From the human T2T-CHM13v2.0 reference genome, Homo sapiens, in assembly GCF_009914755.1 (NCBI RefSeq), contig NC_060925.1: a DNA stretch of 64,000 nucleotides; one strand, given 5' to 3'. Positions 8,690 to 15,000 of this stretch are shown in pieces. The position numbers and the translations under genes were made by a program. Within the stretch, counting starts at the first letter, position 1. Each line of letters opens with the position of its first letter. Under the pieces are notes generated by a model, which was given only the letters and a program-made list of their open reading frames with translations, was not told where the DNA came from and searched no databases.

Positions 8690-8807
8690 GCAGAGACAAT
8701 TTCCTCACCACTCACAAACTTTGCATAAGAGACTGCTTTACGGTGTCCTTTGAATACCATGATTGGCTGTTTAGTGTTACGAAGATCATAGTAGTGGACA
8801 CAGTGAT
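8690..8807 (-). CDS. COP1: COP1 coding exon (118 nt): (D)[38 protein letters not shown](A)
   Basis: Manual translation with WD40 GH dipeptide. Acceptor ttttag|, donor TGC|gtgagt. Phase 1 to 2. Confidence 0.97.
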
Positions 8808-9139
8808 CTAAAACAAAACAAAATTAGATAAATGTAGTAAATGCAGAAATGGAAAGCAAAGTTAATTTTAACTGGTTTTTGGTTTTTTCATTAAAAGTTT
8901 CACATATGATGTCTAATCTCTAACAGCCAGAAAACAAAGGAAAAGGAATCCTTTTCAAATATAAGATTGGCTCTAGAAAGAGAGTATTAAGGGGTCAAAA
9001 TAACTGGAAACTTAAAAATCAATCTTTGTTTTAATGATGTCATGAAAAAAATGTTAATATAAACATTATGGGACATCTGGATAAACATAATGCTATATAA
9101 TCTTATTTCCCATATTTGTTTTAAAAAACCATTATTTAG

Positions 9140-10315
9140 ATATATTTTGCATATAATAAAATACACACACTAAAAATATTGTATGCAATTCAACGATCTT
9201 TACTAAATTTAACCAGCAGTTCAACTATTACCATAAATCAGTTTTAGAGTATTTCTGCACTCCGATAAGATCACTCATTTGGCATCCACCATCACAGGCA
9301 GTCTCTATTCCTGTCTGTCTCTATCACTAATTTCTACTCTAACCTTTATTATTTCCTTCCTTCTGCTTGTCTTCAGTTAGCTTTGTTATTCTTTTTAAAG
9401 ACAGACACTTAAGGATACACAATTCTCTATCAACACTGCTTTGGCTGATACCACAAATTGTGATATGATGTGTTTCCATTTTCATTCAGTTTAAAATCCT
9501 TTTACATTTCCTTTGTTATTTCTTCTTTGACTAATGGTTATTTAGTAATGTGTCATGTAATTTCCAAATACTTGCAGATGTCTCAAAGTAACTATTGTTG
9601 ATTTTTAATTTAATTCCATTTTGGTCAGAAAACTGTTTTGTATGTCTTCAATCATTTTAAATTTATTGACAGAAAACTGTTTTGTATGTCTTCAAGCATT
9701 TTAAATTTATTGACTTATTTTTAGTCTTAAATATGGTGTCCCCTGGAGACTGTTACTAACACTTGCTTGAGAAGAATGTGCATGCTTCTACTGTTGGCTG
9801 AAGTGGTCTTTGGATGTCTGTTATGTCAGATTGACAATGTTATTCAAGTCTTCTAAAACTCTGCCAATTTTCTGTCCAGTTTTTCTATGAAATATCAAAA
9901 GTGGAGTATTTTTCAACAACTTCAGTCAAAATATCTGTTTTTCCCTTAAATATCACAGATTTTCTTTTCATATATCTACAAAAAGTTTGTTTTGAGGTGT
10001 GTTGATAATTGATGTATCTTTTCACTATTGATTCTTTTACCATTATAAAATGTCTTTGTTTCTAGTACTGATTTCTACTCTAAGTATATTCTGTTCGACC
10101 TAAATATAGCCATTCTACCATTTTTCTTGACTACTACTTACATGGTATATCTTTTTCCATCCTGTTACTTTAACCTATTTGTGTCTGTGAATCTAAAGTC
10201 TATCTCTTGTAGACAGCATAAAGCTGGATTCTAATTTTTTTTTTTTTTGTAAACCCATTCTGCCAATCCCTGAATGTTACAACATTCAACATACTTACAT
10301 TTAATATAATTATTA
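9140..10315 (-). mobile_element. Old L1M fragments (outermost host of the nested stack, resuming about 20020-21646 and 27703-28600)
   Basis: T-rich degenerate reverse L1 ORF2-like sequence. Confidence 0.6.
9626..9713. repeat. 44-bp tandem duplication
   Basis: cagaaaactgttttgtatgtcttcaa(t/g)cattttaaatttattga twice (9626, 9670), one mismatch. Confidence 0.95.
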
Positions 10316-11569: not shown

Positions 11570-12037
11570 TTAAAAATGTACAATGGGAGGTGGAGGCAAG
11601 ATGGCCAAATAGGAACAGCTCCAGTCTACAGCTCCCAGAGTGAGCGACGCAGAAGACGGGTGATTTTGCATTTCCATCTGAGGTACCAGGTTCATCTCAC
11701 TAGGGAGTGCCAGACAGTGGGTGCAGGAGAGTGGGTGCAGCGCACCGTGCGCGAGCCAAAGCAGGGTGAGGCATTGCCTCACTCGGGAAGCGCAAGGGGT
11801 CAGGGAGTTCCCTTTCCTAGTCAAAGAAAGGAGTGACAGACGGCACCTGGAAAATCGGGTCACTCCCACCCTAATACTGCGCTTTACCGACAGGCTTAAA
11901 AAATGGCGGACCAGGAGATTATATCCCGCACCTCGCTCGGAGGGTCCTACGCCCACGGAGTCTCGCTGACTGCAAGCACAGCAGTCTGAGATCAAACTGC
12001 AAGGCGGCAGCGAGGCTGGGGGAGGGGCACCTGCCAT
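11570..12037 (-). CDS. L1 antisense ORF0, open and extended to 155 aa (MAGAPPPASLPPCSLISDCC...)
   Basis: ATG at 12037 within ORF-track 11570..12157. Splice donors at ORF0 nt 106 and 191 retain GT. Expression unknown. Confidence 0.5.
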   Translation of the reverse strand: MAGAPPPASLPPCSLISDCCACSQRDSVGVGPSERGAGYNLLVRHFLSLSVKRSIRVGVTRFSRCRLSLLSLTRKGNSLTPCASRVRQCLTLLWLAHGALHPLSCTHCLALPSEMNLVPQMEMQNHPSSASLTLGAVDWSCSYLAILPPPPIVHF

Positions 12038-15000
12038 TGCCCAGGCTTGCTTAGGTAAACAAAGCAGCTGGGAAGCTCGAACTGGATGGAGCCCACCACA
12101 GCTCAAGGAGGCCTGCCTGCCTCTGTAGGCTCCACCTCTGGGGGCAGGCACAGACAAAAAGACAGCAGTAACCTCTGCAGACTTAAATGTCCCTGTCTGA
12201 CAGCTTTGAAGAGAGCAGTGGTTCTCCCAGCATGCAGCTGGAGATCTGAGAACGGGCAGACTGCCTCCTCAAGTGGGTCCCTGACCCCTGACCCCCAAGC
12301 AGCCTAACTAGGAGGCACCACCCAGTAGGGGCAAACTGACACCTCACACCGCCGGGTACTCCTCTGAGACAAAACTTCCAGAGGAACGATCAGAGAACAG
12401 GACTTGCGGTTCACGAAAAGCCGCTGTTCTGCAGCCACCGCTGCTGGGACCCAGGCAAACAGGGTCTGGAGTGGACCTCTAGCAAACTACAACAGACCTG
12501 CAGCTGAGGGTCCTGTCTGTTAGAAGGAAAACTAACAAACAGAAAGGACATCCACACCAAAAACCCATCTGTATATCACCACCATCAAAGACCAAAAGTA
12601 GATAAAACCACAAAGATGGGGAAAAAACAAAGCAGAAAAACTGGAAACTCTAAAAAGCAGAGTGCCTCTCTTCCTCCAAAGGAACGCAGCTCCTCACCAG
12701 CAACGGAACAAAGCTGGATGGAGAATGGCTTTGACGAGTTGAGAGAAGAAGGTTTCAGATGATCAAACTACTCTGAGCTACAGGAGGAAACTTAAACCAA
12801 AGGCAAAGAAGTTGAAAACTTTGAAAAAAATTTAGACGAATGTATAACTAGAATAACCAATACAGAGAAGTGCTTAAAGGAGCTGATGGAGCTGAAAGCC
12901 AAGGCTCGACAACTACGTGAAGAATGCAGAACCCTCAGGAGCCGATGAGATGAACTGGAAGAAAGGGTATCAGTGATGGAAGATGAAATGAATGAAATGA
13001 AGCGAGAAGGGAAGTTTAGAGAAAAAAGAATAAAAAGAAATGAGCAAAGCCTCCAAGAAATATGCGACTATGTGAAAAGACCAAATCTACGTCTGATTGG
13101 TGTACCTGAAAGTGATGGGGAGAATGGAACCAAGTTGGAAAACACTCTGCAGGATATTATCCAGGAGAACTTCCCCAATCTAGCAAGGCAGGCCAACTTT
13201 CAGATTCAGGAAATATAGAGAACGCCACAAAGATACTCCTCGAGAAGAGCAACTCCAAGACACATAATTGTCAGATTCACCAAAGTTGAAATGAAGGAAA
13301 AAATGTTAAGGGCAGCCAGAGAGAAAGGTCGGGTTAACCACAAAGGGAAGCCCATCAGACTAAGAGCGGATCTCTGGGCAGAAACTCTACAAGCCAGAAG
13401 AGAGTGGGGGCCAATATTCAACATTCCTAAAGAAAAGAATTTTCAACCCAGAATTTCATATCCAGCCAAACTAAGCTTCATAAGTGAAGGAGAAATAAAA
13501 TACTTTACAGACAAACAAATGCTGAGAGAATCTGTCACCACCAGGCCTGCCTTACAAGAGCTCCTGAAGGAAGCACTAAACATGGAAAGGAACAACCCAT
13601 ACCAGCCACTGCAAAATCATGCCAAATTGTAAAGCCCATCGAGGCTAGGAAGAAACTGCATCAACTAACGAGCAAAATAACCAGTTAACATCATAATGAC
13701 AGGATCAAATTCACACATAACAATATTAACTTTAAAGGTAAATGGACTAAATGCTCCAATGAAAAGACACAGACTGGCAAACTGGATAAAGAGTCAAGAC
13801 CCATCAGTGTGCTGTATTCAGGAAACCCGTCTCACGTGCAGAGACACACATAGGCTCAAAATAAAAGGATGGAGGAAGATCTACCAAGCAAATGGAAAAC
13901 AAAAAAAGGCAGGGGTTGCAATCCTAGTCTCTGATAAAACAGACTTTAAACCAACAAAGATCAAAACAGACAAAGAAGGCCATTACATAATGGTAAAGAA
14001 ATCAATTCAACAAGAAGAGCTAACTATGCTAAATATATATGCACCCAATACAGGAGCACCCAGATTCATAAAGCAAGTCCTGAGTGACCTACAAAGAGAC
14101 TTAGACTCCCACACAATAATAATGGGAGACTTTAACACGCCACTGTCAACATTAGACAGATCAATGAGACAGAAAGTCAACAAGGATATCCAGGAATTGA
14201 ACTCAGCTCTGCACCAAGCAGACTTAATGGACATCTACAGAACTCTCCACCCCAAATCAATAGAATATACATTTTTTTCAGCACCACACAACACCTATTC
14301 CAAAATTGACCACATAGTTGGAAGTAAAGCTCTCCTCAGCAAATGCAAAAGATCAGAAATTATAACAAACTGTCTCTCAGACCACAGCGCAATCAAACTA
14401 GAACTCAGGATTAAGAAACTCACTAAAAACCGCTCAACTACATGGAAAGTGAACAACTTGCTCCTGAATGACTACTGGGTACATAACGAAATGAAGGCAG
14501 AAATAAAGATGTTCTTTGAAAACAACAAGAACAAAGACACAACATACCAGAATCTCTGGGACACATTCAAAGCAGTCTGTAGAGGGAAATTTATAGCACT
14601 AAATGCTCACAAGACAAAGCAGGAAAGATCCAAAATTGACACCCTAACATCACAATTAAAAGAACTAGAAAAGCAAGACCAAACACATTCAAAAGCTAGC
14701 AGAAGGCAAAAAATAATTAAAATCAGAGCAGAACTGAAGGAAATACAGACACAAAAAACCCTTCAAAAAAATTAATGAATCCAGGAGCTGGTTTTTTGAA
14801 AGGATCAACAAAATTGATAGACCACTAGCAAGACTAATAAAGAAGAAAAGAGAGAAGAATCAAATAGATGCAATAAAAAATGATAAACGGGATATCACCA
14901 CCGATCCCACAGAAATACAAACTACCATCAGAGAATACTACAAACACCTCTACACAAATAAACTTGAAAATCTAGAACAAATGGATAAATTCCTCGACAC

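What the first reader, a model, noticed from the sequence alone, without database searches (positions are those of the whole stretch)
8690..12160. Possible in-frame L1 ORF0-COP1 fusion driven by the L1 antisense promoter
Seen: the + strand L1 starts about 2.8 kb upstream (in COP1 orientation) of exon 8807-8690, so its antisense strand runs with COP1. ORF0 is open from ATG 12037. The donor at ORF0 nt 106 (CGAG|GTGCGG, last exonic base 11932) is phase 1, and exon 8807 also starts in phase 1. Joining them gives [49 protein letters not shown]... in frame through the downstream exons. The donor at nt 191 (CCAG|GTGCCG, last base 11847) is phase 2 and is in frame with exon 7741. Known: primate L1 5'UTRs have an antisense promoter, and ORF0 uses these two donors to fuse with neighbouring exons. 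Inference: when this L1 is demethylated, a short isoform lacking RING and coiled-coil and holding only the C-terminal WD40 blades could be made. It would be an incomplete propeller and may not fold.
Basis: partly seen in the sequence, partly recalled or inferred. Interest (0 to 1): 0.85.

Follow-up and report, generated by a model that had tools for sequence, protein, structure and literature searches.

The report
Untested L1 ORF0–COP1 fusion layout
An old, broken L1 retrotransposon in a COP1 intron is laid out so that its small antisense ORF0 could splice in frame onto the last COP1 exons, but hundreds of L1 copies are expected to share this layout by chance, and I found no record that such a transcript is made.

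Summary
The sequence observation holds. A full-length, ORF-broken L1 (11585-17834, + strand) lies antisense to COP1, about 2.8 kb upstream of exon 8807-8690. ORF0 starts at ATG 12037. The GT donors after ORF0 nt 106 (last base 11932) and nt 191 (last base 11847) are where stated. The three named junctions (11932>8807, 11847>7741, 11932>6432) are the only 3 of 6 donor/exon pairings that stay open.

Donor 1 carries a private -3 C>G change (0 of 20 nearest genomic relatives share it). Donor 2 has C instead of G at +5 and scores about 0 bits. The element keeps the ~127-nt 5'UTR segment that younger L1s lost to escape ZNF93.

RFWD2/COP1 appears in none of the L1 antisense-transcript lists or full-text searches I could reach. 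Published base rates are low: 57 of ~3200 genic ORF0 loci fused, and 44 of 1509 L1 chimeric transcripts spliced.

A product would keep COP1 residues 577-731, 155 of the 353 residues in the crystallised WD40 construct. It would lack the RING and coiled coil.

Verdict: an ordinary intronic L1 with a chance phase match. It is a low-priority candidate that a junction-read search would settle.

The parts
11585..17834 (+). L1_A: a full-length (6250 bp) primate L1, antisense to COP1, in the intron between exons 46995-46879 and 8807-8690. ORF1 and ORF2 are broken.
   Evidence: The 5' end was read. The extent comes from self/L1_B BLAST. Only fragments of ORF1/ORF2 remain open, the longest being 548 aa.
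11585..12615 (+). L1_A 5'UTR: 1031 nt, 31 CpG, CpG observed/expected 0.39.
   Evidence: The ORF1 ATG at 12616 was read.
12363..12489 (+). A ~127-nt 5'UTR segment (L1_A positions 779-905) that is absent from the younger L1_B. It corresponds in place and size to the 129-bp ZNF93-target region deleted in L1PA3 and later subfamilies.
   Evidence: BLAST gap and alignment gap. The ZNF93 link comes from passages of bioRxiv 10.1101/429613. No ZNF93 motif or ChIP data were tested here.
11984..12184 (-). The region equivalent to L1 positions 400-600, where the L1 antisense promoter is placed in the literature. It is 92.7% identical to L1_B.
   Evidence: Positions computed from the L1 start. Identity is 191 of 206 columns. 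Promoter location is from Criscione 2016 section 7 and Pinson 2022 passages. Activity at this copy was not tested.
11570..12037 (-). ORF0 of L1_A: ATG at 12037, open for 155 codons.
   Evidence: the ORF listing and translation.
11926..11934 (-). Donor 1, GAG|GTGCGG, last exonic base 11932, ORF0 nt 106, phase 1. It is the best-scoring GT inside ORF0 (3.06 bits on a rough recalled matrix). The G at -3 is private to this copy.
   Evidence: Of the 20 nearest relatives, 18 have CAG|GT and 0 have GAG|GT.
11841..11849 (-). Donor 2, CAG|GTGCCG, last exonic base 11847, ORF0 nt 191, phase 2. It has C at +5 and scores 0.06 bits.
   Evidence: L1_B has GTGCGT here. None of the 20 relatives has G at +5.
8690..8807 (-). 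COP1 coding exon (exon 17 by my count), entered in phase 1. It encodes residues 577(part)-616(part).
   Evidence: Hub annotation, frame check, and PDB mapping of its 38 whole codons to residues 578-615 of the 731-aa chain 9ltr_A.
7617..7741 (-). Next COP1 exon, entered in phase 2. It is in frame with donor 2.
6272..6432 (-). Following COP1 exon, entered in phase 1. It is in frame with donor 1.

Best explanation
This is an ordinary, fixed, retrotransposition-dead L1 of a pre-ZNF93-escape subfamily. By my estimate it is L1PA3-long to L1PA6, most likely around L1PA4. It sits antisense in the 38-kb COP1 intron upstream of the exon at 8807.

Like thousands of L1PA copies, it carries the antisense ORF0 and a GT donor after ORF0 nt 106. 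That this donor is in phase with the next COP1 exon is a coincidence of about 1 in 3.

The layout would allow an antisense-promoter transcript to splice 11932>8807. That transcript would encode 35 ORF0 residues, a junction Asp, and COP1 578-731. Most likely the locus is silent, or yields at most unspliced antisense read-out, and no COP1 fusion protein of any consequence is made.

- **Shown:** anatomy, phases, donor states, product boundaries.
- **Inferred:** lack of expression and lack of function.
For: **Anatomy and frames:**

**The layout is generic.**
- The own-genome search with the 191-nt ORF0 stretch gave 2209 first-look candidates, a lower bound.
- All 20 of the 20 nearest copies fetched keep the ATG, and 18 of 20 keep a CAG|GT donor 1.

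**Published base rates are low.**
- 57 of ~3200 genic ORF0 loci show exon fusion (Criscione 2016 text citing Denli 2015).
- 161 of 8744 L1PA1-7 5'UTRs have EST-supported chimeras, and only 44 of 1509 chimeras in brain/glioma are spliced (Pinson 2022 passages).

**No COP1 record was found.**
- 0 occurrences of RFWD2/COP1 in the Criscione supplements. The control gene UVRAG was found in the same alphabetically sorted table, after the place where R would fall.
- 0 in 5 Jonsson 2019 supplement files.
- 0 in 1 Honda 2020 supplement file.
- 0 in the main texts of Pinson 2022, Garza 2023 and PMC10506190.
- Full-text searches gave 0 or only irrelevant papers.

**The donors are weak or weakened:**

**The ZNF93-type segment is retained:**

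**The hub's RefSeq table lists no functional element at 11585-12615.**
Against: - Nothing here measures transcription, so absence from lists is weak evidence. EST and brain/hNPC data sets are shallow for rare or tissue-restricted junctions.
- I could not see the Denli 2015 list of 57 fusions (not held), Garza 2023 table S3 (closed) or Pinson 2022 tables S1/S2 (not requested after the closure).
- I could not see the other 30 RefSeq COP1 transcripts.
- Donor 1 is still the best GT in ORF0. It scores within the range of the six natural COP1 donors in the window, which run from -0.3 to 7.19 bits on the same rough matrix.
- The next natural acceptor is only 3124 nt away.
- The ATG context is good and no upstream ATG lies within 196 nt.
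- The antisense-promoter region is 92.7% identical to that of a younger L1.
Confidence: 0.72

Rival explanations
1. In cells where this L1 is derepressed (tumours, placenta, germ line, DNMT-inhibited cells), the antisense promoter starts upstream of 12037. Donor 1 then splices to exon 8807, or more rarely to 6432. The result is a low-abundance ORF0-COP1(577-731) mRNA whose roughly 190-residue product is unstable and has no COP1 activity. At most it would be a source of a junction peptide.
For: - In-frame junctions confirmed.
- Good ATG context with no upstream ATG for 196 nt.
- Donor 1 is the best GT in ORF0.
- Splicing of L1 antisense transcripts to downstream exons, and ORF0-exon fusions, are documented for other loci in L1PA2-8 (Criscione 2016; Jonsson 2019 passages; Pinson 2022).
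Against: - No record for COP1/RFWD2 in any list or search reached.
- Only 2.9% of L1 chimeric transcripts were spliced in Pinson 2022.
- Criscione 2016 places the primary antisense start near position ~400, which would be downstream of this ATG at position 453.
- Donor 1 carries a private -3 G.
- The ZNF93-type segment is retained.
Confidence: 0.2
2. The antisense promoter is used, but it starts downstream of the ORF0 ATG (the +400 or +200 start regions), or the transcript stays unspliced. The locus then gives a non-ORF0 transcript. This would be either an unspliced antisense RNA ending at one of the intronic poly(A) hexamers, or a spliced RNA translated, if at all, from the first in-frame COP1 Met (residue 593).
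For: - Pinson 2022: 12 of 36 tested chimeras appeared to start in the +200 region, and 97% of chimeras were unspliced.
- Criscione 2016: primary start near ~400.
- Nine AATAAA/ATTAAA hexamers lie on the minus strand between 12037 and 8808.
- The first in-frame Met after the junction is residue 593.
Against: There is no expression evidence at all for this locus. The counts are family-wide rates, not measurements of this copy.
Confidence: 0.06
3. A functional, selected short COP1 isoform: an L1-promoted WD40 fragment that acts as a decoy or regulator of COP1 substrates.
For: Only the in-frame layout.
Against: - The product would keep 155 of the 353 residues in the crystallised WD40 construct, and neither the RING nor the coiled coil. 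A partial propeller is not expected to fold or to form the substrate-binding face (general knowledge of WD40 propellers).
- Donor 1 has drifted away from the family state rather than being improved.
- No literature trace.
Confidence: 0.02

Closest known systems
ORF0-proximal exon fusions of primate L1 (Denli et al. 2015, Cell 163:583; seen here only through citing papers)
   Same: - An ORF0-bearing L1 5'UTR lies antisense, upstream of host exons.
- The start codon is at L1 position ~452 (here 453).
- There is a GT donor inside ORF0.
- The join to the next host exon is in frame.
   Different: - No transcript, ribosome or peptide evidence exists for this locus.
- ORF0 is open for 155 rather than 71 codons.
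- Donor 2 lacks +5 G, and donor 1 has a private -3 G.
L1 antisense-promoter chimeric transcripts (LCTs) such as L1-MET (L1PA2) and L1-UVRAG (L1PA6) in Criscione 2016, tables seen
   Same: An intronic L1PA element antisense to the host gene, with the host's downstream exons as possible splice targets.
   Different: MET and UVRAG have supporting ESTs and RT-PCR. RFWD2/COP1 has no entry.
L1_B, the second full-length L1 of this window (21651-27689, minus strand)
   Same: Same family. The 5'UTR is 91.7% identical, the body 95.9%. The ORF0 start and donor 1 are at the same positions.
   Different: - L1_B lacks the ~127-nt segment.
- It has the canonical 71-aa ORF0 and a donor 2 with +5 G.
- It is sense to COP1, so its ORF0 points away from COP1 exons.

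Membership tests
ORF0-bearing primate L1 (L1HS, L1PA2-8) | A full-length 5'UTR of the L1PA1-8 type with the antisense ORF0 start at about position 452 | tested here: met
   The 5'UTR aligns over its length with L1_B. The ATG is at L1_A position 453. Garza 2023 places the ORF0 start codon at position ~451.
ORF0-bearing primate L1 (L1HS, L1PA2-8) | ORF0 open from the ATG through the donor sites | tested here: met
   Open for 155 codons.
ORF0-bearing primate L1 (L1HS, L1PA2-8) | A 71-residue ORF0, the length given in Criscione 2016 | tested here: not met
   ORF0 is 155 codons in L1_A and 71 in L1_B. One extra base after donor 2 is shared by all 20 of the 20 nearest relatives.
ORF0-bearing primate L1 (L1HS, L1PA2-8) | Subfamily assignment by RepeatMasker/Dfam | not testable with these tools
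   No repeat library is on hand. I infer L1PA3-long or older from the retained ~127-nt segment. Non-CpG divergence from the 20 nearest copies is 3.8%.
L1 antisense-promoter chimeric transcript (LCT) | A transcription start on the antisense strand within the L1 5'UTR | not testable with these tools
   No CAGE, RNA-seq or EST data are available here.
L1 antisense-promoter chimeric transcript (LCT) | An RNA joining L1 5'UTR antisense sequence to flanking unique sequence or exons | tested here: inconclusive
   Tested by literature only. There were 0 occurrences of RFWD2/COP1 in the supplements of Criscione 2016, Jonsson 2019 and Honda 2020, and none in the main texts. Other lists were not visible.
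ORF0-exon fusion protein | A splice donor within ORF0 in the same phase as a downstream host exon, with no stop | tested here: met
ORF0-exon fusion protein | Evidence of translation (Ribo-seq, tagged protein, peptides) | not testable with these tools
   None available.

The most novel reading that the evidence does not exclude
In strongly hypomethylated cells (some tumours, trophoblast, DNMT-inhibited cells), this L1's antisense promoter produces an ORF0-COP1(577-731) mRNA through the 11932>8807 junction. The roughly 190-residue product is misfolded and rapidly degraded. It would then supply a junction peptide that is absent from normal tissue, that is, a transposon-derived tumour-specific antigen from an otherwise ordinary E3-ligase gene.
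Probability: 0.05. Interest if true: 0.4.

Novelty: new member of a known kind. Interest (0 to 1): 0.14.

Why it matters
If the junction were found, COP1 would join the list of genes with an L1 ORF0 fusion isoform, which has modest interest for TE-derived antigens and COP1 biology. As it stands, the value of this check is mostly negative. It shows that an in-frame ORF0/exon layout is expected for a large share of antisense intronic L1PA copies and should not be flagged on sequence alone.

One useful by-product emerged. In this older L1 lineage the second ORF0 donor lacks its +5 G and ORF0 has no stop at codon 72. Rules taken from L1HS therefore do not transfer unchanged to older subfamilies.

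Tried and rejected
- **Denli 2015** is not held. What I say about it comes from citing papers only.
- **Garza 2023 supplements:** Table S3 of that paper and tables S1/S2 of Pinson 2022 were therefore not seen.
- **Controls on supplement searches:** I ran no positive control on the Jonsson 2019 or Honda 2020 supplement searches. I cannot say that the relevant tables were among the files held.
- **PMC3643820** mentions RFWD2 only as a knock-down experiment label, which is irrelevant. **PMC4867070** (ORF0 + COP1) is unrelated.
- **Target-site duplication** of L1_A: only a 10-nt AT-rich match, not convincing.
- **Cryptic acceptors** between the L1 and exon 8807: my threshold returned 0 sites and would also have missed the natural acceptor, so the scan says nothing.
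- **Pfam on single-exon translations:** only sub-threshold beta-propeller matches, and none for the ORF0 part. The PDB sequence match was used instead.
- **Donor scores** come from a rough position matrix that I recalled, not from MaxEntScan. Treat them as ranks only.
- **Not run:**
  - A structure prediction of the fusion protein, because a spliced, joined sequence cannot be handed to that tool.
  - Orthologous loci in other primates.
- **Rejected reading:** that the 155-codon ORF0 is special to this copy. It is a lineage trait; 15 of 20 relatives read past codon 71.
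Full report
**1. What is in the sequence**

Read on the minus strand, which is the COP1 orientation, the window shows the antisense of an L1 5'UTR. The L1 itself is on the + strand. It begins at about 11585 and runs to about 17834, a length of 6250 bp. Its ORF1 ATG is at 12616, so the 5'UTR is 1031 nt.

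Only fragments of ORF1 and ORF2 are open. Between 11400 and 18000 there are four + strand ORFs of 100 aa or more, the longest 548 aa. The element is therefore full-length but dead.

**2. ORF0, donors and phases**

- The ATG is at 12037, L1 position 453, in context GCAATGG. The nearest upstream minus-strand ATG is at 12233.
- The frame stays open for 155 codons, to 11570.
- Donor 1, GAG|GTGCGG, has its last exonic base at 11932 (ORF0 nt 106, phase 1).
- Donor 2, CAG|GTGCCG, has its last exonic base at 11847 (nt 191, phase 2).

The six annotated COP1 exons of the window translate without a stop in one frame. That fixes the entry phases of exons 8807, 7741 and 6432 as 1, 2 and 1.

I joined the pieces by coordinates in a script. 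Three pairings stay open to the end of exon 6432-6272: 11932>8807, 11847>7741 and 11932>6432. The other three donor/exon pairings stop at codons 41, 70 and 65. Two further GT sites (11870, 11783) are out of frame with all three exons.

**3. Is it more than chance?**

With two donors in different phases, about 2 in 3 antisense intronic L1s of this kind would have an in-frame partner in the very next exon.

The layout is also very common.
- The 191-nt ORF0 stretch found 2209 first-look candidates in the window's own genome. That is a lower bound, and only 40 were scored.
- All 20 of the 20 nearest copies I fetched keep the ATG, and 18 of 20 keep CAG|GT at donor 1.
- Criscione 2016, citing Denli 2015, gives about 3200 genic ORF0 loci, of which 57 showed fusion to an exon (passages).

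**4. What kind of L1 it is**

A second full-length L1, which I call L1_B, lies at 21651-27689 on the minus strand. Compared with it:

| Region | L1_A against L1_B |
|---|---|
| 5'UTR | 91.7% identical |
| Body | 95.9% identical |
| 5'UTR positions 779-905 (window 12363-12489) | ~127 nt present in L1_A, absent from L1_B |

Passages of bioRxiv 10.1101/429613 state that a 129-bp deletion arose and became fixed in L1PA3 and later lineages, and that it evades ZNF93. By place and size, L1_A keeps that segment and L1_B lacks it.

I therefore place L1_A in L1PA3-long or an older subfamily. This is an inference, because no repeat library was available. Non-CpG divergence from the 20 nearest copies is 3.8%, and 6.0% over all sites. 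The 5'UTR has 31 CpG with an observed/expected ratio of 0.39.

**5. State of the donors**

I scored all GT sites with a rough donor matrix recalled from memory, so the scores serve as ranks only.

| Site | Score (bits) |
|---|---|
| Donor 1 | 3.06, the best of 26 GT sites within the open ORF0 |
| Donor 2 | 0.06 |
| Six natural COP1 donors of the window | -0.3 to 7.19 |

The 20 nearest relatives show which features are private and which belong to the lineage.
- **Donor 1.** 18 of 20 have CAG|GT and 0 of 20 have GAG|GT, so the G at -3 is a private change of this copy.
- **Donor 2.** 15 of 20 have C at +5, 3 have T, 2 have lost the GT, and none has G.
- **Extra base.** L1_B has GTGCGT at donor 2. 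This lineage carries one extra base just after donor 2 relative to the younger L1. That base both removes the +5 G and takes the canonical stop out of frame.
- **ORF0 length.** L1_B's ORF0 is 71 aa (27241-27456), the length given in Criscione 2016. 15 of 20 relatives read past codon 71.

It also needs the exon at 8807 to be skipped.

**6. What the product would be**

The 38 whole codons of exon 8807-8690 match COP1 residues 578-615 of the 731-residue chain 9ltr_A. They also match positions 200-237 of the 353-residue WD40 chain 5igq_A.

A donor-1 fusion would thus be 35 ORF0 residues, a junction Asp (residue 577), and residues 578-731, about 190 residues in all. It would hold 155 of the 353 residues in the crystallised WD40 construct, and neither the RING nor the coiled coil.

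That such a fragment would not fold rests on general knowledge of WD40 propellers and was not tested here.

The exon numbers 17-19 are my count. It follows from 20 exons in total and 20 residues left after the exon ending at 6272.

**7. Evidence on expression, from literature only**

*Supplement searches for RFWD2/COP1*
- **Criscione 2016:** 0 occurrences in the 10 supplement files, which cover 988 antisense transcripts from ESTs. The control gene UVRAG was found in the same alphabetically ordered table, after the place where R would fall.
- **Jonsson 2019:** 0 in 5 supplement files. These concern DNMT1-knockout neural progenitors and 131 primate L1s overlapping GENCODE v25 starts. I ran no control.
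- **Honda 2020:** 0 in 1 supplement file. I ran no control.

*Main texts.* There were 0 occurrences in Garza 2023, Pinson 2022 and PMC10506190.

*Full-text searches*

| Terms | Papers |
|---|---|
| RFWD2 + 'L1 chimeric' | 0 |
| RFWD2 + LINE-1 + 'antisense promoter' | 1, irrelevant |
| RFWD2 + L1PA | 0 |
| COP1 + L1PA + 'E3 ubiquitin' | 0 |
| COP1 + 'L1 antisense promoter' | 0 |
| ORF0 + COP1 | 1, unrelated |

*Not seen.* These could hold the locus:
- Denli 2015, which is not held.
- Garza 2023 table S3, which was closed.
- Pinson 2022 supplementary tables.
- The other 30 RefSeq COP1 transcripts.

*Base rates from Pinson 2022 (passages).* 161 of 8744 L1PA1-7 5'UTRs have EST-supported chimeras. 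1509 chimeras were found in brain and glioma, and only 44 of them (2.9%) were spliced. 12 of 36 tested chimeras appeared to start near +200, which is downstream of ORF0.

Criscione 2016, section 7, places the main antisense start near ~400. In L1_A that would be downstream of the ATG at position 453.

**8. Mechanism and verdict**

The route is the known one. Antisense-promoter transcripts that start upstream of 12037 would carry ORF0. If donor 1 is used, the first natural acceptor downstream is exon 8807, 3124 nt away. The reading frame would continue to the normal COP1 stop.

Nothing shows that this happens. Several features lower the odds:
- the private -3 change at donor 1;
- the weak donor 2;
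- the retained ZNF93-type segment;
- nine poly(A) hexamers in the intervening 3.2 kb;
- low family-wide splicing rates;
- absence from every list I could see.

I put about 0.72 on an inert coincidence and 0.2 on rare junction transcripts without function. Another 0.06 goes to antisense transcription that misses ORF0 or stays unspliced, and 0.02 to a functional isoform.

**9. Comparison and novelty**

The closest known things are the ORF0-exon fusions of Denli 2015 and L1 antisense chimeras such as L1-MET and L1-UVRAG. The sequence criteria for membership are met. The defining expression criteria could not be tested.

If the junction were found, this would be one more member of a known kind. 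No new principle is involved, so the interest is low.

Noticed in passing
window 21651-27689 (minus strand): A second full-length L1 (L1_B, ~6.04 kb) lies sense to COP1 in the same intron. It lacks the ~127-nt ZNF93-type segment, so it belongs to a younger subfamily. Its ORF1 and ORF2 are broken. It carries an intact canonical 71-aa ORF0 on the + strand at 27241-27456. The RefSeq 'enhancer 26886-27387' of the hub table lies inside its 5'UTR, over the antisense-promoter/ORF0 region.
   Followed up: partly
window 11585-17834 (+) and 21651-27689 (-): The two L1s are tail-to-tail inverted copies 3.8 kb apart within one COP1 intron. They are 95.9% identical over 4850 nt. In the pre-mRNA they could pair into a very long double-stranded stem, which is a possible A-to-I editing or dsRNA-sensing substrate. 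In DNA they form a large inverted repeat.
   Followed up: no
window 11841-11849 and loci L001-L020: L1_A and all 20 of its nearest genomic relatives carry one extra base just after ORF0 donor 2, compared with L1_B. The same single-base difference decides two things: whether donor 2 has G at +5, and whether ORF0 stops at codon 72. The 71-aa ORF0 and a good second donor therefore seem to have arisen together in younger L1s.
   Followed up: partly
window 12033-12040: The ORF0 start codon overlaps the GCCAT core that Criscione 2016 reports as a second YY1 site at L1 positions 448-453. The core is kept in L1_A and L1_B.
   Followed up: no
window 11452-11584: NCBI's repeat mask starts 133 nt before the L1 5' end, so another AT-rich repeat fragment abuts the L1. 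I found no convincing target-site duplication for L1_A.
   Followed up: partly
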